The notes below the pieces were generated by a model, which had not been told where the DNA came from, did no database searches, and worked only from the letters and a program-made list of their open reading frames with translations. The position numbers were made by a program, and so were the translations under genes. From Candidatus Latescibacterota bacterium (lineage in GTDB: Bacteria; Latescibacterota; UBA2968; UBA8231), in contig OZ253462.1 of NCBI GenBank assembly GCA_965261395.1, forward strand, positions 480,001 through 544,000: 64,000 nt of DNA. Reading direction: 5' to 3'. How positions within the stretch are numbered: the stretch's first letter is position 1; each line of letters starts with the position of its first letter. Below, piece after piece: positions 926-63,992 of this stretch.

Positions 926-2904
926 CTATCGCAGCAGGATGAGCTTGCGCGTCAAGACAACCTCGTCCGTCACCAGTCGATACAGGTACGCACCGCTGGC
1001 CACAGGACGACCGGCAGCGTCCCGACCGTCCCAATGCAGCCGGTGGAGACCGGCTTGCTGCGGCCCTTGATGCAAGACCGCCACTCGTTGACCGCTCAGC
1101 GCGAACACTTCGAGGCGCGCCGAACCCGATTTTAGCAGGAAGTAGGACAAGATTGTCTGGCTGTTGAACGGATTGGGCGCGTTTTGCAGCAACTGCGGGC
1201 CCTCCAATGCTTGCCCCGCCAACTTGCCGCTTGAGAAAAAATCGTCGAAGCCAGCTAAGTCCGTCTCTTGCCCGGTCGCACTAAAGGTCACCCCCACATC
1301 AAGCCCCGCGACCGTCGCCTCAACCGTGTTGTCCCCCGGAGTGCTGCCCAGCCGCAGGGTGGTGGCGGCGCGGCCGTTGGCATTGGTGGTGGCCGTGGTG
1401 GCCGTGAGGGTTCCCCCGCCAGCGGTGACCGAAAAAGAGACCGCCGCCCCGGCAAAGGCCGCGCCGTTTTCATCCGACACGGACACCACAAACGGCGCGT
1501 CCAGTTGGGCACCGGCTGGTCCTTCTTGGCCATCGCCGGAGACTATGGTCAGGCTATGGGGCGTTGTGTACCCGGTAGCGGTGAAGGTCGCCGACCCAAG
1601 CCCGGCCACCGTCGCCGTGACGGAATTCGACCCCGGAGTGCTGCCCAGCGTCAGCGTGGTGGAGGCTTGGCCGCTGGCATCGCTGGTGGCCGTGGCCGCC
1701 GAGAGCGTCCCTCCACCAGCGGTGACCGAAAAAGAGACCGCCGCCCCGGCAAAGGCCGCGCCGTCCGCATCCAGCACCGAAACCACAAACGCAACAGCCA
1801 ACGTAGCGCCGGCCGGGCCTTGTTGGCCATCGCCGGAGACTATGGTCAGACTATGGGGCTGGGGAGCCGCCGGCTCGTCACCGGCAGAAGTACCGCGCGG
1901 GGTGTCGCTACCGGCTCCCGAATCGTCCGACGATTCCTCCGACTTCGCCTGCGGGGTGTCGCTACCAGTGTCCTGATCGTCCGATGAGTCATCCGACTCC
2001 TCTTGCGGGGAGGTCTCCTCGGCACCTCGACCTACACCAACACCATCATGGGAAAGCTGGTCGGGACCATGTTCGTGGTGGACGTGCTCGCCGGGCGGCA
2101 GGAAAAAATCGTGATAGACATGGCTATGGGACCGATGTCTATGGAATACATAGCCATCATGCTCGTGGTTTATCTCAGCATGACTATGTACATCATCAGG
2201 ACCATACCCCTCTAATGGGCCAGTATTTGGTGGATCCTGTGTTGCTACCCCGCTGTGGCTGGTTCCAAATTGATCTCCCTCTGGATTATGTCTGTGATTC
2301 ACATACCATTCACCATCCCCACCATTGACGCGATGTCCGTGTGCCAGGACATCTAAGTCAGAATGAGAACCGCGGCTATACAGCCCATCATCGTCATAAT
2401 CATAACTACCGAGGTCATGACGATGACGTTCATACTGTAATGGAGAATTGGATCCAACTGCGTGGCCATGCCACGGGCCCAGTCCGCTTTCAATGGTGCC
2501 TTCCTGACCGACTTCGGGTCTGTCTACGCCTGGATGCTCATAGTTCCAATGAATATGTGGCATATACCAGGTTTGTTTTACCCTTCCGTCACCATCCTCG
2601 TTGTAGATCGGGCTGCCTTCTAAGATCGCGTCTTCGTCTTCTGGGGCGTTTGGGTCGCGGTCTCTCCAGCGGTCGAAGGTTCTGTCGTTACCGTCACGCC
2701 GTCGTCATCACCAATAGGGTTTATAATCTCAGAAGCAAAATTGAACCACATCGTATCACTATCCTTATCGTGGTCGTGCCATCGGTGACTTATACTTGCT
2801 GCGTGAGAAGTTCTGGCGTTGTGTCCGCTTGTGTCGTGTGCGCCAGCGTAGTTGGCGACGCAGAGCACGGCGATCGCTAAAGCGATAGAAGCTAAGTTTT
2901 TCAC
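926..2904 (-). pseudogene. Secreted His-rich protein with two Ig-like (Big_1-type) repeats and FlgD/T9SS-type C-terminal domain; 1-nt frameshift near 2698 (real or sequencing error)
   Basis: GTG 2904 with AAGGAG RBS encodes a signal peptide (MKNLASIALAIAVLCVANYAGA). The frame of ORF 926..2563 stays open upstream to ~2700 (RDGNDRTFDRWRDRDPNAPEDEDAILEG...). C-terminus LLQNAPNPFN...WDGRDAAGRPVASGAYLYRL. Confidence 0.75.
1270..1860 (-). repeat. Tandem 297-bp (99-aa) intragenic repeat encoding Ig-like domains
   Basis: GACTATGGTCAG at 1541 and 1838; PHSLTIVSGDGQ..GPAGA.L...FVVSV.D..GAAFAGAAVSFSVTAGGGTL occurs twice. Confidence 0.9.
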
Positions 2905-3263
2905 GATAGGTCTCCTTCTAAAGAGAGGTTTGTGGAGTGATTCCCCTGATCTCAATCTTGCGACAAATTTCAGGGGGTAGCGTGTCAAAGAGGCGGCAAA
3001 CGTGTTCAGACAGGCGCAAAAAGAGGCGGCAAACGTTTGTAAATAAAGGACAAACGTTCATAGCAGGTCGCACGACCAAGGACCGAGCAGGCGCGGCCAA
3101 ACAGACGTTGGCCGCAGTATGGAGAGAGTGGGTCTTAGAGAATTAGGAGGCATAAATAATTGTTTTTGAACGACTTATACTATTATTTCTGTCGTCCAAA
3201 GCTCGGGACCGGACGCTACATGAGGCCACCGCACCAGCCGCTGTCTTATCATCGGAAAGGGAA

Positions 3264-50500: not shown

Positions 50501-51397
50501 TTACCGCACGAGCGTCATCTTGCGGCTCTCTGCTCTCTTGCCGCTCTTCAAACGGTAAAAGTAGATGCCGGAGGGAACCGGCTGCCCTCCGGCGTCCCGA
50601 CCTTCCCAATTCACCCTATAACGACCGATCTGCAACCGCCCAACCACCAGATTGACCACAGGCCGTCCCAGTACATCAAAAACCTGTAAATGCACTTCTG
50701 TTTCACTGGACAAGCTAAAAGGGATGACTGTGCCGCTGTTAAAGGGATTGGGGTAATTACTCTCCAACTCAAAATTCCTTGGTTGCCCCTTCGACATCTC
50801 CAGCCCTGCGGTCGCCTCTAGCTGTTCCCGTTCCTTATCGCCAGCCAAAATCGCCGCGCCCAAATTATCTAGCGCCTCCTCAATGTGCTGGCGGATAACC
50901 TGTTCGTTGAACCGACGGGCAACAGCGCCCACCGAACGATAGCGCAAAATCCCCTCGTGGTCGATCACCGCATAGTTATGCTGGGTAAAACCATAGAGGG
51001 ATCCTACTGTACTGGCTTGGAGAAGAAGAGGGTAGGTCGTTCCTGTTCTCTGGCGAAAACTCAAGTCCACCTGTTGGCTGATGCCGTCCGCTACATCCAC
51101 GCCAATTAAGACGAATTCCTCCCCTTTAAAATCCTGCCAAATCTGCTCTATCTTCGCGGCCTCCGCGAGACAGTGACTTCAGATAAAACCGAAAAAGTTG
51201 ATAAGGACCACCTTGCCGCGAAAATCGCTCAGAGATACATAGTCGCCCTCTAGCTGCTGCAAAGTGAAACCCGGCGCTAGCTTGCCCGCCTCGGGCACTT
51301 GCCCCATCGTCCCTTGGACGCTTAACAGCAGAGCGATCAGTGGTCCCCAAACAACACCTCTGCTCGCCTTCACACGGTAGTTCATCACCTTGACCAT
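50501..51397 (-). CDS. Probable selenoprotein: secreted TlpA/redoxin (UxxC) with FlgD/T9SS-type C-terminal domain
   Basis: ORFs 51179..51397 and 50501..51100 are in frame, separated only by TGA 51181-51179: SLSDFRGKVVLINFFGFI-U-SHCLAEAAKIEQIWQDFK...; C-terminus NYPNPFN...WEGRDAGGQPVPSGIYFYRL. Confidence 0.85.
51148..51173 (-). promoter_or_regulatory. Bacterial SECIS-like hairpin
   Basis: Starts 6 nt after the UGA: CUGUCU-CGCGG-AGG-CCGCG-A-AGAUAG, an 11-bp stem with one bulge and a G-containing apical loop. Confidence 0.65.
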
Positions 51398-53420: not shown

Positions 53421-53607
53421 TTTCCCTATGGCCTTGTCGGCCCCAAAATGTGTTTTAAAAACGGTAATAAAAAATAAATATTGTTTACAATACTATATGT
53501 TCCTTAACATAAGTAGTACATTTCTCGGCCCTGACATCGTAGTGCTGAAACACAATGCTGCAGATCTTGCGCGGTTGATGCGTTCGATATGTGCACAGGA
53601 GGCCCCT

Positions 53608-56600
53608 ATGAGACTCCCGAGTCACCCCTCGCCCTGCCCTGCCCTGATTCTCATCTTTTTGCTCGGTCTGAACCTCGTCTCACCCCAGCCTACTGAAGCT
53701 CAGAAGCAGGGATACCGGATCGTCGGCAACCAAATCATTGTCAACTCCCCAGCCCATTGGGAGCGTTGGAGCATGCCCGGGCATGCCGTGAACATACTCT
53801 CCTCCGGCGGCGTCCACCCCCACTTCTCCCGCTCCCGATTCAATGTCCTAGACGACCTGGAAACCTATACTCGCCGCTTGTTAGATTTTAGGCGCAAGAA
53901 GAATCAGACCGCCGTCTTAAATATCGACAGCACCGAAACGCTGGATGTCTTCGGCAATATCATACGCGACCGCAAGGACAACCCCCTCTACACCTACCTA
54001 TCCCGCATAGGGATCAGCCGCGTCGGATCCAATCCTAGGGCGGCGGCCAACATTCTGGACGGCGATCCCAGCACTTTCTGGGAACCCGACTTCAACGACC
54101 CCATAGAGGACTGGTGGGTCGAGGTGGACCTCGGCCGGAGCCTGCCCGTCGACGAGTTGGTCTTAAATTTTGTCGATGAGTCGTTGGGCGACCCCTTCCG
54201 CCAGTTCAGAATATTGAGCGCTCCTTTCCAAAAGGTTATCAACCAAGAGGTGAACGAAATCCCCTTTCGCCGCGAAGGTGGGACCAAAGGCTCCAATCAG
54301 GACCAGCGGGTGTTCTCTTTCCCGTTGGACCAATTCCAGGCCGATCCCAACTGGATTGGGGAAACCATCCAGATAATCCGCATTGTAGTAACCGATTCCA
54401 AATTCGGCCGGGGCAAATTGATTTCAGAAGAGGAATGGTCTGCTCTGAACTCGGCGGATCGAGGAGATGTGGTCTATTTTATTAAGAACCGGCAGGGATT
54501 CGAAGAACCAGTTGAAAAATCTGTCTACGACGGTCTGTCGCCCGAACGCCAAGGCAAGATAGAGCACTACATCCGCGAACGGCCCCGGCTGGCCGACATC
54601 CAAGTCTGGGGATTTGGGGACAATCTCAGCCCGGGGCTCGTAGCAGGGGGCGGCTCAGCCGCCTTCCTGGGGGCCAACGATTCCTTTTCTCCGGCAACGG
54701 CATTTGACGGGGATGGAGGCTCCAATTTTATCCACCTAGTCTGGTCTCCAACGGTGGACCGGGGGGTTCTGTTCGTGGATATGGGGGCTACTTTCTGGTT
54801 GGACACCTTCCGCATGTCCTCCTCCCTGCCTCGACTTTTGATCGATGGCTATATTCTTCGCGGCTCGGACGGATCGCGTGATTCTAGCGGCCGGATCAAA
54901 TGGCGACGCATAAGTGCCCCGGCCCGAGAACACAACATGACAGATCGGTTCGAGCACCTGATGGACGTGTACCAGCCCCCTCCCAAAGTGCGATTTCTAG
55001 AAGTAATCATCGTCTCCGATGATCCCCGCCGCCGGGGCGGTTATACCGCCGGTCCGAATGTTTCCGAATACCAACTCTTCTCAAGTGGCTATCCGGCTGC
55101 CGTAGAGTTGGTCTCAGATCTGATCGAACTGCCGGGGACGCGGAATTTTGGCGGTATCACTTGGGAAGCAGAGACTCCGCCAGAGGCCACGCTGGAGGTG
55201 CGCACCCGCACTGGCGATCTGCTGGCCAAGGAAATCCGCTATTTCGACAAAGGTGGTACGGAAATTACCGCCGCCGCTTGGGGTAATCTCATCGGCAGTT
55301 TCAAAGGTCCGGCGGATACCACCCTTATCCCGACGAGAGGTTGGAGCCCTTGGAGCCGGGCCTACCAGAACCCGGGAGACCCGGTGACCTCCCCTGGGCT
55401 GCGAAAGTTCATGCAGATCCAAGTCAAAATGATCACGACCGACCGCAATGTTGCCGCCGCCATACAATCCATTGGCATTGAGATGGCCACCCCTGTGGCC
55501 GAACTCATTCTGGCCGAAGTGTGGCCCGTCGATATTCCTACTCCGGGCATCGTCGATACCTTTGAAGTATTTATCCAACCCAATTTTATCGAAAGTCCCT
55601 CTAGATCGCGCAGTACTGGGTTCGATGAAATCCTGCTGACCATGCCCGCTTCCCAAAGCATGGAACTCCTCGAAGTGGGCCTAGACACCGATCCCCAGAC
55701 CGATGGGGAAGATCAAGTTTTCCTTCCCATTGAAGAGGGAAGTTTCGTCGACGAAAACGGTGGGTTGCTCCGGTTCTTGGGTCCTACCACTGGCTCCGAT
55801 TCCATCTGGGTGCAACTACCCACCCCACTCCATAGCCTCTCCGATTTGCCCAAAATCTATAACAAAATCACCACAGAAGGGGATCAAGTCCCGGTAACAG
55901 GGGACGGCTTGCTGCTTTCGGGGGATTCTTACGGGCTGCTCGAAGACGAGGAAAAGGGAGATATTCTCTATTTCGATGCAGAGGGCAACTCCATCGATCA
56001 GGCCTCCTACCTTGCCCTCGAAGAGGAGGAGCAAGGCTCCGTGCGCTTCTTTAGGCTGCTGAACGGGGCGGGGGCTCAGTTCCCCTTCGACGAGGTGGGC
56101 GATTCCCTCGATGTTGCCGCCTACAACCGCCTCTCCAGCAGGATAAAAGGCAACATAGTCGGCCGAGGTCCGCTGGTACGGCTGCGCTATAGGGCACCGG
56201 TCTTTCTCAATGGCACTACTCTGCGCCTAGCTGTACGCAATACCAGCAGTGGCGCTGATGCTCCATGGCAGAGCATCGCTGCCGGCGATGCGACCCCTTT
56301 GGTGGGGAGCAATTCCCTTTCTATCAATGTGCCGTTAGAGAGTAAGCCCATCGATAAATTTAGTCTAGACCCCAATCCCTTCACCCCTAATGGGGATGGC
56401 ATCAACGACGAGGTGGTGATTCGCTTCTCCATCTTCAAAGTAACTGCCAGCCGCCAAGTGAAGGTGAAGATTTTCACTTTGGCTGGCCGCTCGGTATGGG
56501 AGACGACGCAGATGCTCGACAGCGGCCACGTTTCAATTCGCTGGTCTGGCGAAGACCGCAACGGCCAAAAAGTGGCACCCGGGCTCTACCTCTGCCAGCT

Positions 56601-56667
56601 AGAACTGGATGTAGACAACCAAGCAGACGGGTCCACCCAAACCCGTCTGCTTTCCGTCGCCTACTAG
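53608..56667 (+). CDS. Large secreted protein with discoidin-like segments and FlgD/CHU_C-like C-terminal domain
   Basis: AGGAGG RBS, signal peptide, NILDGDPSTFW..WWVEVDLGR, PNPFTPNGDGINDE...WSGEDRNGQKVAPGLYL. Confidence 0.85.
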   Translation: MRLPSHPSPCPALILIFLLGLNLVSPQPTEAQKQGYRIVGNQIIVNSPAHWERWSMPGHAVNILSSGGVHPHFSRSRFNVLDDLETYTRRLLDFRRKKNQTAVLNIDSTETLDVFGNIIRDRKDNPLYTYLSRIGISRVGSNPRAAANILDGDPSTFWEPDFNDPIEDWWVEVDLGRSLPVDELVLNFVDESLGDPFRQFRILSAPFQKVINQEVNEIPFRREGGTKGSNQDQRVFSFPLDQFQADPNWIGETIQIIRIVVTDSKFGRGKLISEEEWSALNSADRGDVVYFIKNRQGFEEPVEKSVYDGLSPERQGKIEHYIRERPRLADIQVWGFGDNLSPGLVAGGGSAAFLGANDSFSPATAFDGDGGSNFIHLVWSPTVDRGVLFVDMGATFWLDTFRMSSSLPRLLIDGYILRGSDGSRDSSGRIKWRRISAPAREHNMTDRFEHLMDVYQPPPKVRFLEVIIVSDDPRRRGGYTAGPNVSEYQLFSSGYPAAVELVSDLIELPGTRNFGGITWEAETPPEATLEVRTRTGDLLAKEIRYFDKGGTEITAAAWGNLIGSFKGPADTTLIPTRGWSPWSRAYQNPGDPVTSPGLRKFMQIQVKMITTDRNVAAAIQSIGIEMATPVAELILAEVWPVDIPTPGIVDTFEVFIQPNFIESPSRSRSTGFDEILLTMPASQSMELLEVGLDTDPQTDGEDQVFLPIEEGSFVDENGGLLRFLGPTTGSDSIWVQLPTPLHSLSDLPKIYNKITTEGDQVPVTGDGLLLSGDSYGLLEDEEKGDILYFDAEGNSIDQASYLALEEEEQGSVRFFRLLNGAGAQFPFDEVGDSLDVAAYNRLSSRIKGNIVGRGPLVRLRYRAPVFLNGTTLRLAVRNTSSGADAPWQSIAAGDATPLVGSNSLSINVPLESKPIDKFSLDPNPFTPNGDGINDEVVIRFSIFKVTASRQVKVKIFTLAGRSVWETTQMLDSGHVSIRWSGEDRNGQKVAPGLYLCQLELDVDNQADGSTQTRLLSVAY

Positions 56668-61874: not shown

Positions 61875-63992
61875 ATGCTCAAGAATACAGTATCCTCGAG
61901 ACAGGTCATTTTAGTTGGGGTTGGTATCCTGTCCCTCTGCCGTTGGGCGGTGGCGCTGGAGACAGTGAGTCTTGGAGGGAACGGCTCGCTCAACTGGCGC
62001 GGTGAAGGTTCGTCCTCGGTGGAGACTATCGAGCCTCAGTACCGATCTCTTTTTCAAGACAAAAATGTGCCGGGTGTGGAACTACTGGTGGGCAACTCGC
62101 CCGGCAACTTGATCGAGTTTGAGAGCGACGAATTTCCTGGTAGTATCCATCCTCTGCGCATTCCAGATGGCGAGAATATCGCCAATACCGCACTTCGACG
62201 CGGGGGTGGTATAACCGCACCCAATGTCTTTGACTTGGGCGGCTTCGCCGCCGGCATTTTTGACGCCAACGACCTACGGCTCACCTTGGAGGAACTCATC
62301 GAAACGAAGGATGGAGGCGAAATAAAAGCGTTCGGACGCAAGAATTACAATGCCTTGGGGACCCTAATATTCGTCGAGTTGGGAGGACTCTTTGGGGTAA
62401 ATCGCGTTCGCTTCTATCCCCGCAATACGGTTTTCCCATCGCCTACCACCCCATTCCACAACGATTTTTTGCGGGCCTTTGAACTGTTCACCAACGACGG
62501 CAGCCAGACCGAAGGAGGCAATCTCATCTGGGAGCCACTGCTCCTAGAACCCGATAACGAGAATCCAGTTGTTGATGTAGTCATGGATCCACCGCGCCCT
62601 GTCAAAGCCCTGCGCTTGCGGGCGACGACCACGGTCAACTACGAAATCGACGAGTTTGAGGTATTCGGTACGGGCTTTTTGTCCAACGCCGAGTATATTT
62701 CACCTATTTTCGATGCGGGCCAACCTGCGGTGTGGAACATACTCCGCTGGCAGGAAGAAGCAATTGGCGATCCTGCCTTTTCCAATATCCAGATTCGCAC
62801 CCGCACAGGTAGGGATACTAACCCACTTGTCTTTACTCGTCTGCTCTACGGCCAGCGCAATCCCACAGAAATTTCGCTCTCGGTAAATAACCCGGAACAG
62901 GAAATGGATTTGGAGGAGTACATGTCCCTGCCGCTCGACGACGAATTGGGGCGCCGATGGGAGCACGGACCGGTTCGGGAAGATCTAGTCAACTGGAGTC
63001 CGTTCAGCACGCCGCTTCCCGCCAGTGCAGCCAACGATTCAGCAGGCTCGCCCATTACCTCACCCGGGCCGCGGCGCTATTTTCAGTTTCGAGTAATTTT
63101 CAACAGCAGTGATCTGGATGCAGGGCGGGTGCTCAAGAACTTGAGTTTTGACGTGCTGGCACCCCCTCTAGCCGATGCTGTCATCGGCGAAATTTTTCCC
63201 CGGGATGTGCCGGTTTCCCAGAGTACGTCCTTCACCTATGCTTTGCGCACCGTGGCTCAGTCCGACGGCCTGCTCGGTTTTGACACAGTGAAGATTTCCA
63301 CAGTCGGCCAAGTAGAAAGCATCGACAGGATAGAAATGAGGGATTCCAGCGGCCAGATCATCGCTGAGCGGGCTTTTTCTGGTCTAGATGATTCGTCTAC
63401 TGAGGAGGGCTTCCAGATCGTCTCGGTATCCCCTGCCAGTTTTTCGGTGCGTCTGCCGCCGGTGCGAGAAGACAATATTGTGGTTCTTCTCCGCTTCCAG
63501 ACCGGAGTTTTGACCTATAGCACAAACTTCACTGGTTCGATCCAGCTCTCCACCGAACCAGGGGCCTCACAGGCCATTATTCCGGGCGATGCAGTTTTGT
63601 TGGGTGAAGGAGACGAGGCCGATTTATCCGGTACCACGGTGCTGAGTCCCTTGGTGCTCGAAAAGACCCAACTGCTCGACCAGGTACTTATCGAGCCCAA
63701 CATCTTTAGCCCCAACGGAGACGGAGCTAATGATGTGATGGGGATGAGCTACAATCTGCTATCCCTGAGTATCGTCCGACCCGTGGCAATTGGGGTGTAC
63801 GATTTAAGCGGACGCCAGATCCAGGTCATCCACGACGGCCCTGAGTCCAATGGACAGTACACGGACAAGACCTGGGACGGCCGCAATGAGCATGGGCAGC
63901 TAGTGCCGGCGGGACTCTATGTCGTGCACATCAAAGTCGAGGGAGACGCCAAGGTCGAGAGAAAGGCCCACCTTGTGGGAGTGGTCTACTAA
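61875..63992 (+). CDS. Secreted protein with FlgD/CHU_C-like C-terminal domain, paralogue of 53608..56667
   Basis: Signal peptide, IRTRTG, WSPFS, ITSPGPRRYFQ, PNIFSPNGDGAND...WDGRNEHGQLVPAGLY. Confidence 0.85.
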   Translation: MLKNTVSSRQVILVGVGILSLCRWAVALETVSLGGNGSLNWRGEGSSSVETIEPQYRSLFQDKNVPGVELLVGNSPGNLIEFESDEFPGSIHPLRIPDGENIANTALRRGGGITAPNVFDLGGFAAGIFDANDLRLTLEELIETKDGGEIKAFGRKNYNALGTLIFVELGGLFGVNRVRFYPRNTVFPSPTTPFHNDFLRAFELFTNDGSQTEGGNLIWEPLLLEPDNENPVVDVVMDPPRPVKALRLRATTTVNYEIDEFEVFGTGFLSNAEYISPIFDAGQPAVWNILRWQEEAIGDPAFSNIQIRTRTGRDTNPLVFTRLLYGQRNPTEISLSVNNPEQEMDLEEYMSLPLDDELGRRWEHGPVREDLVNWSPFSTPLPASAANDSAGSPITSPGPRRYFQFRVIFNSSDLDAGRVLKNLSFDVLAPPLADAVIGEIFPRDVPVSQSTSFTYALRTVAQSDGLLGFDTVKISTVGQVESIDRIEMRDSSGQIIAERAFSGLDDSSTEEGFQIVSVSPASFSVRLPPVREDNIVVLLRFQTGVLTYSTNFTGSIQLSTEPGASQAIIPGDAVLLGEGDEADLSGTTVLSPLVLEKTQLLDQVLIEPNIFSPNGDGANDVMGMSYNLLSLSIVRPVAIGVYDLSGRQIQVIHDGPESNGQYTDKTWDGRNEHGQLVPAGLYVVHIKVEGDAKVERKAHLVGVVY

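What the first reader, a model, noticed from the sequence alone, without database searches (positions are those of the whole stretch)
50501..51397. Hidden selenoprotein: exported UxxC redoxin fused to a secretion C-terminal domain
Seen: an in-frame UGA falls exactly at the first Cys position of the thioredoxin-fold CxxC (INFFGFI-U-S-H-C), and the frame continues through the rest of the fold into a FlgD/T9SS-type tail. The N-terminus is signal-like and a hairpin follows the UGA. Established: UxxC with a downstream SECIS is the bacterial Sec signature. Inference: a cell-surface selenoenzyme of ~295 aa that gene callers split in two; I do not know a described example of this architecture.
Basis: partly seen in the sequence, partly recalled or inferred. 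Interest (0 to 1): 0.85.

Follow-up and report, generated by a model that had tools for sequence, protein, structure and literature searches.

The report
Hidden exported selenoprotein with T9SS tail
This is a real but mis-annotated gene for a selenium-containing redox enzyme that carries an export signal and a cell-surface sorting tail, conserved across an uncultured bacterial phylum; the enzyme type is known, but its pairing with this secretion tail appears undescribed.

Summary
Window 51397..50501 is one 298-codon frame with a single in-frame TGA (51181..51179) at the first Cys position of a CxxC motif (INFFGFI-U-SHC).

The genome is a 6.55 Mb Candidatus Latescibacterota MAG. It has tRNA-Sec, SelA, SelB and a SelD that is itself Sec-containing.

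- The TGA sits at the same codon in 35 of 35 distinct homologues.
- 89 of 95 phylum-wide matches carry one in-frame TGA.
- Cys homologues align Cys to the U.
- A 6–7 bp hairpin starting 10 nt after the UGA is conserved, with compensatory changes.
- Both halves are under purifying selection.

The protein is a signal-like N-terminus, a TlpA/ResA-like redoxin (AhpC-TSA Pfam), a disordered linker and a T9SS type-A C-terminal domain. PorU, a PorV-like gene and SprA are present. GldK and GldM were not detected.

Public databases hold only the 199–202 aa piece after the TGA.

UxxC AhpC-TSA-type redoxins are already a listed predicted selenoprotein family. The new elements are the T9SS-tail fusion, its modular variants and a phylum-wide Sec-dominated clade. 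Surface location and substrate are inferred, not shown.

The parts
50501..51397 (-). Whole gene: 298 codons with one in-frame UGA (Sec73), plus the TAA stop at 50503..50501
   Evidence: Orthologues at 86-92% identity in 10 same-genus genomes, all with 1 TGA.
51395..51397 (-). Likely ATG start (MVKVMNYRV...). A later start (M5, or a GTG) is not excluded.
   Evidence: One orthologue (L034) has an upstream stop that forces a later start.
51302..51397 (-). Signal-peptide-like N-terminus (about residues 1-32): basic n-region, hydrophobic core, small residues before Q
   Evidence: Read from the sequence. Paralogues and Cys homologues have typical short signal-like N-termini ending ...A-x-A-Q. pLDDT below 50 for residues 1-4 and 13-31. 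No predictor was run.
51179..51181 (-). UGA codon read as selenocysteine (U73), the first position of the UxxC motif
   Evidence: TGA at the aligned codon in 35 of 35 distinct homologous sequences. Aligned to Cys in 13 Cys homologues.
51170..51172 (-). TGT codon for Cys76, the resolving Cys of UxxC
   Evidence: Invariant column in the 33-sequence alignment.
51154..51168 (-). SECIS-like hairpin: UCGCGG (51168..51163), loop AGG (51162..51160), CCGCGA (51159..51154). It starts 10 nt after the UGA.
   Evidence: Core pairs (alignment columns 23-27 with 33-37) are paired in 35 of 35 sequences. Compensatory changes: UA to AU, CG to GC, GC to UA.
50843..51289 (-). TlpA/ResA-like thioredoxin-fold redoxin domain (about residues 37-185)
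   Evidence: Pfam AhpC-TSA and Redoxin. PDB profile hits 2ls5 at 1.9e-24, 3kcm, ResA. AF2 pLDDT mostly above 90. Foldseek target TM-score 0.77-0.88 to 2ls5, 4nmu and ResA.
50756..50842 (-). Linker (about residues 186-214): variable, predicted disordered, low-complexity and of very different length in paralogues
   Evidence: pLDDT below 50 for residues 187-204 and 215-218. Repeat-rich linkers in L040 and L043.
50504..50755 (-). T9SS type-A C-terminal sorting domain (residues 215-298; NYPNPFN...RKMTLVR), a beta-sandwich
   Evidence: TIGR04183 41.2 bits (cut-off 23) and PF18962 29.1 bits (cut-off 27). AF2 gives six strands, pLDDT 86-91. The same tail ends within 5 residues of the stop codon in 67 of 110 carriers in this genome.

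Best explanation
Window 51397..50501 (minus strand) is one gene for a 298-residue selenoprotein.

Shown by comparison: the UGA at codon 73 is decoded as selenocysteine by the genome's own SelA/SelB/SelD/tRNA-Sec system, guided by a small conserved hairpin that starts 10 nt downstream.

Inferred:
- The precursor is exported through the Sec translocon by its N-terminal signal peptide and folds in the periplasm into a TlpA/ResA-like thioredoxin-fold domain.
- Its C-terminal type-A sorting domain is then recognised by a type IX-like secretion system (SprA translocon, PorV shuttle, PorU sortase). This passes it across the outer membrane and either anchors it on the cell surface or releases it.
- The exposed U73 is the attacking nucleophile. 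It forms a selenenylsulfide with a substrate thiol/disulfide, or a selenenic acid with a peroxide, and C76 resolves it. The enzyme would therefore be an extracytoplasmic thiol-disulfide reductase and/or thiol peroxidase.

Substrate and electron donor are unknown.
For: Sec trait:
- tRNA-Sec 70 bits (gathering score 47), and ARAGORN calls tRNA-SeC(tca).
- SelA 562.8 bits, SelB 345.8 bits, SelD 374.9 bits, all over their cut-offs.
- SelD has its own in-frame UGA in the N-terminal ...ACGG-U-ASKL motif.

Conservation of the UGA:
- All 10 same-genus orthologues (86-92% identity) have 1 TGA.
- 35 of 35 distinct sequences have TGA at the aligned codon.
- 89 of 95 listed matches in 168 genomes of the phylum have one TGA.

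Cys/Sec pairs:
- 13 Cys homologues align Cys to U, and 9 of them have the same redoxin+CTD architecture.
- A tandem Cys form (GYS-C-KYC) and Sec form (GYT-U-TYC) lie on one contig.

SECIS: helix 87.3% paired, 4 pairs with changes on both sides, 0 of 500 shuffles reach the observed values; versions with partners slid by 1-3 columns are 34-46% paired.

Coding on both sides: dN/dS 0.25-0.55 before the UGA, 0.15-0.46 after it and 0.12-0.40 in the CTD, in 8 orthologue comparisons.

TGA is an ordinary stop here: several orthologues and paralogues, and selD, end in TGA.

Fold.

Tail and machinery:
- Tail calls in 6 and 7; it is C-terminal in most carriers.
- PorU 618.4 bits (cut-off 420), an adjacent PorV-like gene at 150.1 bits, SprA 594.9 bits summed.

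Expression hint: RNA-library contigs from two studies (X12/X15 and X17) bridge the UGA, with no listed difference at the codon or hairpin.
Against: - No protein-level evidence exists for Sec insertion or for secretion.
- The hairpin is not significant on the single sequence (z = -1.31). It matched no Rfam family. bSECISearch was not available.
- T9SS motor/ring genes were not detected. GldM had no match, but the control rang nowhere, so that result is uninformative. GldK gave only partial hits of up to 70.1 bits against a cut-off of 350. PorV is below its cut-off (150.1 against 250).
- A surface-located redoxin would be out of reach of the usual inner-membrane electron donors of TlpA-type proteins (established knowledge of CcdA/DsbD, recalled). 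The catalytic cycle outside the cell is therefore unexplained.
- By alignment, the family lacks both the cis-Pro of TlpA/ResA and the Arg of peroxiredoxins before the VIDxxG strand (compared with recalled motifs). The chemistry is therefore not pinned down.
- RNA-library contigs can contain DNA, as the tool itself warns.
Confidence: 0.8

Rival explanations
1. The redoxin is a genuine selenoprotein but stays in the periplasm, like classical TlpA/ResA/CcmG. Under this reading the Ig-like C-terminal domain is a structural or binding module rather than a working secretion signal, and DsbD/CcdA-type donors supply the electrons.
For: - The closest solved relatives are periplasmic or extracytoplasmic thiol-disulfide oxidoreductases.
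- GldM and GldK were not detected.
- The tail also matches FlgD_ig.
- Some clade members lack the tail altogether: L070, L076 and L080 have a short tail, and L068 has other repeats.
Against: - The tail passes the curated T9SS type-A model.
- It is carried by more than 100 other ORFs of very different sizes in the same genome, mostly at the extreme C-terminus.
- PorU and SprA are present over their cut-offs, with a PorV-like gene next to PorU.
- The variable, disordered linker is typical of a cargo-tail arrangement.
Confidence: 0.17
2. There are two separate genes, as public annotation implies. One would be a 72-residue exported peptide that ends at the TGA. The other would be a 199-residue 'T9SS sorting-domain protein' that starts at GTG 51100.
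For: The table-11 ORF list gives exactly these two ORFs. Databases hold the 199-202 aa form.
Against: - Neither piece would be a complete thioredoxin fold, because the active-site helix and the first strands would be separated.
- The stretch between the TGA and the GTG (codons 74-99) is conserved as in-frame coding sequence and holds the invariant C76.
- Full-length Cys homologues are single proteins.
- The 199-aa form would have no signal peptide.
Confidence: 0.02
3. The TGA is a nonsense mutation, a pseudogene or an assembly error.
For: None beyond the stop codon itself.
Against: - The same codon is TGA in 35 of 35 distinct sequences from many genomes and assemblies.
- dN/dS is below 1 on both sides of it.
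- RNA-library contigs of two studies carry it unchanged.
Confidence: 0.005
4. The UGA is read through as a standard residue (Trp, Gly or Cys) by a variant genetic code or by near-cognate suppression, not as Sec.
For: The frame is open under any code that reads TGA as a residue.
Against: - TGA ends many genes here, including orthologues of this gene and selD.
- A complete Sec system is present.
- The codon sits exactly at a redox-active Cys position and has a conserved downstream hairpin.
Confidence: 0.01

Closest known systems
Prx-like thiol:disulfide oxidoreductase selenoprotein family (pfam00578 AhpC-TSA; UxxC/UxxU), a predicted prokaryotic selenoprotein family listed in Table 1 of PMC9312934
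   Same: The same Pfam family passes its cut-off. It has the same UxxC motif with Sec in the first position, Cys homologues, and a SECIS-type hairpin after the UGA.
   Different: - The review passages seen mention no secretion tail, and 'secret' and 'extracellular' occur 0 times in its text.
- This clade has FFG(F/Y)x-U-xxC rather than the W-C-xx-C context of the classical TlpA-like proteins seen.
TlpA / ResA / CcmG (DsbE) extracytoplasmic thiol-disulfide oxidoreductases; solved relatives 2ls5 (Bacteroides thetaiotaomicron), 3kcm, and ResA 1st9/4nmu
   Same: Thioredoxin fold with the TlpA-type insertion. The active-site dyad sits at the start of the first long helix. It has an export signal. 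Profile E-values are 1.9e-24 to 5e-17, and Foldseek target TM-scores are 0.77-0.88.
   Different: - Sec replaces the nucleophilic Cys.
- It is far below the curated cut-offs of ResA (51.6 against 170), DsbE and TlpA.
- The cis-Pro position before the VIDxxG strand is not conserved (the ResA motif is recalled).
- It carries a T9SS tail instead of a membrane anchor.
T9SS type-A CTD cargo proteins of Bacteroidota (for example gingipains and gliding-motility adhesins; recalled)
   Same: N-terminal signal peptide plus a C-terminal beta-sandwich of about 80 residues that passes TIGR04183 and PF18962. PorU and SprA are in the genome. There are many cargo genes per genome.
   Different: The host is Latescibacterota, not Bacteroidota. 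GldK and GldM were not detected with the Bacteroidota-built models. The cargo is a selenoprotein, for which searches of the library found no description.
Cys-containing redoxin + Por_Secre_tail proteins in public databases (for example P0114 'redoxin domain-containing protein', Candidatus Marinimicrobia; P0076 'peroxiredoxin')
   Same: The same three-part architecture at 33-38% identity over 88-100% of the length, with CxxC aligned to UxxC.
   Different: They have Cys instead of Sec, so they are annotated full-length. They come from other phyla.
NCBIfam NF041054, ResA-like WAxxUGC motif-containing selenoprotein
   Same: It is also a ResA-like redoxin that contains Sec.
   Different: The score is only 19.7 bits against a cut-off of 300, and the motif differs (UGC against U-S-H-C). 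The target is not a member.

Membership tests
Bacterial selenoprotein gene (Sec-decoded UGA) | The genome encodes tRNA-Sec, SelA, SelB and SelD | tested here: met
   All are over their curated cut-offs. ARAGORN calls tRNA-SeC(tca).
Bacterial selenoprotein gene (Sec-decoded UGA) | The in-frame UGA is conserved in orthologues and aligned to Cys in homologues | tested here: met
   35 of 35 distinct sequences. 89 of 95 phylum matches. 13 Cys homologues. A tandem Cys/Sec pair.
Bacterial selenoprotein gene (Sec-decoded UGA) | A SECIS stem-loop lies shortly downstream of the UGA within the coding sequence | tested here: met
   A hairpin 10 nt after the UGA, supported by conservation and covariation. 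bSECISearch was not available, there was no Rfam match, and the single-sequence z-score is only -1.31.
Bacterial selenoprotein gene (Sec-decoded UGA) | Selenium is present in the protein | not testable with these tools
   Needs 75Se labelling or mass spectrometry.
Prx-like thiol:disulfide oxidoreductase selenoproteins (pfam00578, UxxC) | AhpC-TSA domain over its cut-off, with a UxxC motif | tested here: met
   55.3 bits against 26. Motif U73-S-H-C76.
Prx-like thiol:disulfide oxidoreductase selenoproteins (pfam00578, UxxC) | Orthology to the family's published example | not tested
   The example's sequence was not retrievable with the tools. Only the table entry in PMC9312934 was seen.
TlpA/ResA/DsbE thiol-disulfide oxidoreductases | Thioredoxin fold with the TlpA-type insertion and the active site at the helix N-terminus | tested here: met
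TlpA/ResA/DsbE thiol-disulfide oxidoreductases | Score over the curated equivalog or subfamily cut-offs | tested here: not met
   ResA 51.6 against 170. DsbE 30.6 against 123. TlpA 30.1 against 230.
TlpA/ResA/DsbE thiol-disulfide oxidoreductases | A conserved cis-Pro loop opposite the active site | tested here: inconclusive
   The column aligned to the recalled ResA cis-Pro varies (H, D, Q, E) in the 33-sequence alignment. The closest solved relative, 2ls5, also lacks Pro there in the printed alignment. Model coordinates were not inspected.
Peroxiredoxin (AhpC/BCP type) | The PxxxTxxC peroxidatic motif and the conserved Arg | tested here: not met
   There is no T three residues before U73 (G-F-I-U), and no conserved Arg before the VIDxxG strand. 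The motif definitions are recalled.
T9SS type-A CTD cargo | A C-terminal domain that passes TIGR04183/PF18962 and lies at the extreme C-terminus | tested here: met
   41.2 bits against 23, and 29.1 against 27. It ends at the stop codon. AF2 gives a beta-sandwich.
T9SS type-A CTD cargo | An N-terminal Sec signal peptide | tested here: inconclusive
   Signal-like by eye, and conserved in kind among homologues. No predictor was available.
T9SS type-A CTD cargo | T9SS machinery in the genome | tested here: inconclusive
   PorU 618.4 bits and SprA 594.9 bits are over their cut-offs. The PorV-like gene scores 150.1 bits, below 250, but lies next to PorU. GldM had no match, and the control was silent. 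GldK gave only partial hits of up to 70.1 bits. GldL, GldN and PorP were not searched.
T9SS type-A CTD cargo | Secretion and CTD cleavage | not testable with these tools
   Needs fractionation or a reporter assay.

The most novel reading that the evidence does not exclude
A phylum-wide family of selenoenzymes is delivered outside the cell. In this reading, the Sec-redoxin module of Latescibacterota is a surface or extracellular selenium-based peroxidase or disulfide reductase. It is exported by a type IX-like system and shuffled among different extracellular anchors and partners: the T9SS tail, a beta-lactamase-family hydrolase plus tail, calcium-binding-like repeats, and a short SWGxIK tail. 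It would work beyond the reach of the usual membrane electron donors. That would make it the first T9SS cargo selenoprotein and an example of selenium chemistry used at the cell surface.
Probability: 0.5. Interest if true: 0.62.

Novelty: new variant of a known kind. Interest (0 to 1): 0.5.

Why it matters
- It corrects a systematic annotation error. Dozens of database entries named 'T9SS type A sorting domain-containing protein' are the back two thirds of a selenoenzyme.
- It shows that Latescibacterota, an uncultured phylum, use selenocysteine widely. Sec forms of this clade occur in 4 families of one class, and 69 of 168 genomes have a match.
- If the tail works as in Bacteroidota, this is a selenoprotein sent through a type IX secretion system to the cell surface. 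I found no description of that in the searchable literature. It also raises a concrete question: what re-reduces a Sec-redoxin outside the outer membrane?
- The modular variants give natural experiments on what the redox module is used for.

Tried and rejected
- Single-sequence folding of the hairpin is not significant.
- An Rfam scan of the locus gave only two chance-level lncRNA matches and no SECIS family.
- My own genome-wide scan for TGA + open frame + hairpin gave 404 candidates, almost all off-frame noise. It was abandoned as a route to the selenoproteome. It recovered the target and one other UxxC redoxin.
It found 0 papers.
- The search for related loci with the 33-sequence alignment failed because no stretch was conserved enough. 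A tighter 12-sequence redoxin-only alignment worked.
- The GldM search gave no match, but its control rang in no genome, so this is no evidence of absence.
- X19's RNA contig ends 7 nt past the UGA, so it does not count as bridging. The parts of the stretch that the RNA runs leave uncovered carry no meaning.
- The 'dockerin-like' reading of the DxDGDG...FFLFA repeats was not confirmed by Pfam, which gave only a sub-threshold EF-hand_8 hit.
- In a screen of 110 CTD hits for an upstream in-frame TGA with at least 45 further open codons, 15 cases came up. By eye, only the target and its paralogue have a redoxin UxxC context. The other 13 look like neighbouring genes in the same frame and were not tested.
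- Supplementary files of papers were closed. The selenoprotein lists in supplements of the studies cited by PMC9312934 could contain members of this clade.
Full report
**1. What is in the sequence**

The feature lies on the minus strand. Read from 51397 down to 50501, the frame gives 298 residues and a TAA stop, with one in-frame TGA at codon 73 (window 51181..51179)...GKVVLINFFGFI-U-SHC-LAEAAKIEQIWQDF.... Under table 11 the ORF list shows the two pieces a gene caller would report: 72 aa (51397..51179) and a GTG-started 199 aa (51100..50501).

Domain calls on the read-through protein (P0001, with U written as C):
- Pfam AhpC-TSA over residues 38-153 (55.3 bits, cut-off 26) and Redoxin over 37-162.
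- Por_Secre_tail over 215-294 (29.1 bits, cut-off 27) and FlgD_ig over 230-284.
- NCBIfam's T9SS type-A sorting domain TIGR04183 scores 41.2 bits (cut-off 23). ResA, DsbE and TlpA match only far below their cut-offs.

**2. Is the genome able to make selenoproteins?**

Yes. The window is G000:C1:480001-544000 of a single-contig 6.55 Mb genome.
- tRNA-Sec scores 70 bits (gathering score 47), and ARAGORN calls it tRNA-SeC with anticodon tca.
- SelA scores 562.8 bits, SelB 345.8 bits and SelD 374.9 bits, all over their curated cut-offs.
- SelD carries its own in-frame TGA in the N-terminal ...ACGG-U-ASKL... motif. The organism therefore depends on Sec decoding to make its own selenophosphate synthetase.

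TGA is otherwise a normal stop here. selD ends in TGA, and so do several orthologues and paralogues of the target gene.

**3. Is the UGA conserved?**

- A read-through search of 41 related genomes found full-length orthologues at 86-92% identity in 10 other genomes of the genus, each with exactly one in-frame TGA. It also found paralogue groups at 37-49% identity, again with one TGA.
- The window's own genome has a second copy at G000:C1:2949350-2950150 (38% identity, GYS-U-GVC).
- I extracted the frames and mapped the codon aligned to residue 73 in 51 loci. This gave 35 distinct 75-nt sequences, and all 35 have TGA at that codon.
- Across the phylum (168 genomes), 69 have a match to the redoxin domain at E <= 1e-15. 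Of the 95 matches listed, 89 contain one TGA (one of them also a TAG) and 6 contain none.
- The Sec forms lie in four families of one class. The two hits from another class are Cys forms.

**4. Cys/Sec pairs**

The 5.8-billion-protein collection holds the orthologues only as fragments. The 68 best hits (P0002-P0069) are 195-203 aa, cover 67-68% of the query at 80-96% identity, and the named ones are called 'T9SS type A sorting domain-containing protein'.

Further down the list are full-length Cys proteins. Nine have the same redoxin + Por_Secre_tail architecture (33-38% identity; one example is a Candidatus Marinimicrobia 'redoxin domain-containing protein'). Four have no tail (41-46% identity).

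In a 33-sequence alignment (20 Sec forms, 13 Cys forms), the U column is Cys in all 13 Cys forms. The second Cys, three residues on, is invariant. So are G38, A41, F44, L56, G61, G70, T121, P123 and L125.

On one contig of another family (G026:C178), a Cys form (GYS-C-KYC) and a Sec form (GYT-U-TYC) sit in tandem.

**5. The SECIS element**

Ten nucleotides after the UGA lies UCGCGG-AGG-CCGCGA (51168..51154). Alone it is unremarkable: MFE -18.4 kcal/mol for the 66-nt stretch, z = -1.31, and 19 of 200 shuffles fold as well.

Across the 35 distinct sequences it is remarkable. The core GCGG-AGG-CCGC is nearly invariant at the nucleotide level, synonymous sites included, in proteins that are only about 40-55% identical.

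Where the sequence does change, pairing is kept:
- One paralogue group has CUCUCG-CGUGC-CGAGAG in the same register (GC to UA).
- L078 has AGGCGG...CCGCCU (UA to AU and CG to GC).
- L070, L076 and L080 add a C-G pair.
- L042 keeps the pairs through G-U wobbles.

Formal counts on the named helix:
- 87.3% of cells are paired.
- Columns 23-27 with 33-37 are paired in 35 of 35 sequences.
- Four pairs change on both sides.
- 0 of 500 shuffles reach any of the five measures.
- Versions with partners slid by 1-3 columns are only 34-46% paired.

Position and form fit what is established for bacterial SECIS elements, namely a stem-loop shortly 3' of the UGA with G in the apical loop. That definition is recalled; bSECISearch was not available. 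Rfam has no matching family.

**6. Both halves are coding**

In 8 orthologue comparisons, dN/dS is as follows:

| Region | dN/dS |
|---|---|
| Before the UGA, signal peptide included | 0.25-0.55 |
| Redoxin part after the UGA | 0.15-0.46 |
| Tail (CTD) | 0.12-0.40 |

Metatranscriptomic libraries of two studies hold contigs that bridge the UGA: X12 record 2 (50602-51291), X15 record 6 (51012-51353) and X17 record 10 (51121-51376). No difference is listed at the codon or in the hairpin. This is only a hint of transcription, since such libraries can contain DNA, and two further differences were not shown.

**7. What the protein is**

*Redoxin domain.* A profile of the family finds TlpA/ResA-type thiol-disulfide oxidoreductases best among solved structures: 2ls5 at 1.9e-24, 3kcm at 5e-21, ResA at 7e-19 to 5e-15. 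Peroxiredoxins score weaker.

*Fold model.* AlphaFold2 with the family alignment gives mean pLDDT 80.8:
- A confident redoxin domain (blocks from residue 41 to 180 mostly above 90).
- A disordered linker (residues 187-218).
- A six-strand beta-sandwich tail (residues 223-296, pLDDT 86-91).

Foldseek puts 2ls5, 4nmu, ResA and 3kcm on top, with target TM-scores of 0.77-0.88.

*Active-site context.* Sec occupies the first position of the dyad, which is the nucleophilic one. The family has neither the T-x-x-C/Arg signature of peroxiredoxins nor a conserved Pro at the ResA cis-Pro position (the motifs are recalled). I therefore call it TlpA-like, and not a member of ResA, DsbE or TlpA, nor a peroxiredoxin.

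*Distribution in other phyla.* A scan of the named species-genome collection with a redoxin-only alignment gave 80 loci. Of these, 72 have TGC/TGT in a classical W-C-x-x-C context. Five are this clade with TGA, one of them labelled Gemmatimonadota. Three are other TGA-bearing TlpA-like genes in unrelated lineages. Sec in TlpA-like redoxins therefore recurs, and this clade, FFG(F/Y)x-U-xxC, is a distinct and unusually Sec-fixed branch.

**8. The tail and the secretion system**

The same tail is found on more than 100 other ORFs of the genome (148 matches to P0001, nearly all to residues 190-298). Of 110 tblastn hits that reach tail residue 75, 58 end exactly at a stop codon and 67 end within 5 residues of one. 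That is what a C-terminal sorting signal should look like.

Machinery in the genome:
- PorU: 618.4 bits (cut-off 420).
- A PorV-like gene directly beside PorU: 150.1 bits, below the cut-off of 250.
- SprA/Sov: 594.9 bits summed (cut-off 200).
- GldM gave no match, but its control rang nowhere.
- GldK gave only partial hits of up to 70.1 bits.

Export across the outer membrane is thus well motivated but not shown.

The gene stands alone. It is convergent with a spermidine-synthase-like TPR membrane protein. It is divergent from a two-domain PPIC-type isomerase, across a 100-bp AT-rich spacer. No redox partner lies beside it.

**9. Mechanism proposed**

Shown by comparison: UGA is read as Sec through a conserved SECIS, and the protein is a single polypeptide of three modules.

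Inferred:
- Sec-translocon export, periplasmic folding, recognition of the tail, passage through SprA, and PorU processing to a surface-bound or released enzyme.
- U73 attacks a disulfide or peroxide, and C76 resolves the intermediate.

Unknown: the substrate and the electron donor. A surface location would put the enzyme beyond the inner-membrane donors that serve TlpA-type proteins (recalled). This is the main weakness of the surface reading, and the main reason for giving the periplasm-resident rival 0.17.

**10. Novelty**

[quoted passage not shown] The preprint 10.1101/2022.07.06.499078 (passages seen) describes selenoproteins exposed to the extracellular milieu. Neither the catalytic kind nor extracytoplasmic selenoproteins as such are therefore new.

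Full-text searches gave:

| Terms | Papers |
|---|---|
| selenoprotein + type IX secretion | 1, unrelated by title and abstract |
| selenocysteine + T9SS | 2, judged unrelated from title and the start of the abstract |
| selenoprotein + C-terminal sorting domain | 0 |
| selenocysteine + Latescibacter | 4 (3 listed); in the one checked, both passages naming the phylum are only MAG lists |
| Latescibacter + type IX secretion | 0 |
| selenoprotein + bacterial + signal peptide + thiol disulfide | 0 |

I rate the finding as a new variant of a known kind: a Sec-fixed TlpA-like clade fused to a T9SS sorting tail, widespread in Latescibacterota and systematically truncated in databases.

**11. Verdict**

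It is a genuine selenoprotein with confidence about 0.95. The whole proposed pathway, including secretion, has confidence 0.8 as stated, with the secretion step the weakest. Interest is 0.5.

Noticed in passing
G000:C1:2949350-2950150 (-), outside the window (locus L044): A second Sec-redoxin + CTD gene in the same genome. It is 38% identical, has the motif GYS-U-GVC, and has its own hairpin CUCUCG-CGUGC-CGAGAG. It belongs to a paralogue group found across the genus.
   Followed up: partly
L069:1438-3354 (+) and L072:88-2004 (-) (genomes G140, G139): Two 639-aa members of the clade carry a Beta-lactamase-family (PF00144, 216.6 bits) serine-hydrolase domain with an SxxK motif between the Sec-redoxin and the CTD. 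This gives a three-enzyme-module cargo.
   Followed up: partly
L105 (G026:C178) about 1130-2416 and 2429-3124 (+); L068:1327-2115: A tandem Cys form and Sec form of the redoxin lie on one contig. These, and L068, end in paired DxDGDG...DFFLFA repeats (dockerin- or EF-hand-like by eye) instead of the T9SS tail. Pfam gave only a sub-threshold EF-hand_8 hit.
   Followed up: partly
L070, L076, L080; proteins P0074, P0075, P0116, P0119: A subgroup of Sec and Cys forms lacks the CTD and ends in a short conserved tail (...APASWGGIKSxxLVH, or ...W..(I/F)KGLYR). This may be another sorting signal. No family match was found.
   Followed up: no
G000:C1:167936-168962 (+) (locus L021): selD of this genome is itself a selenoprotein, with an in-frame TGA at C1:167966 in the motif ACGG-U-ASKL.
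   Followed up: partly
G000:C1:5393292-5393633 (-): Another thioredoxin-fold ORF has an in-frame TGA in a UxxC context (FYRGFF-U-SVC) followed by a hairpin. It is a likely further selenoprotein.
   Followed up: no
G000:C1:2059017-2060366 (selA) and 2065172-2070727 (sprA): selA lies about 5 kb upstream of the T9SS translocon gene sprA on the same strand. This is probably coincidence.
   Followed up: no
window 53428-56667 (+); also window 929-1195 (-) and 63693-63968 (+): Other T9SS-tailed ORFs lie in the window. One is a 1079-aa protein with CHU_C and a weak F5/8 type C hit, two genes from the target. The genome holds more than 100 such cargo genes.
   Followed up: partly
L088, L090, L111 (public records labelled Gemmatimonadetes/Gemmatimonadota): Records labelled Gemmatimonadota carry this gene. 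L088 and L090 are orthologues 86-88% identical to those of Latescibacterota genomes, and L111 is a 55%-identical clade member. The taxonomic labels look inconsistent.
   Followed up: no
G000:C1, many sites (for example 2744887, 2760766, 5595979, 1497050; and 4094130/4094985/4095840/4096695): The noisy TGA scan turned up identical short contexts at many places. One (...KGSGRRCWIG*PSG) occurs in at least 8 copies, and another (...PNLRPEESRA*SAV) in several. There is also a run of four copies spaced 855 bp apart. These indicate repeated elements and a tandem repeat.
   Followed up: no
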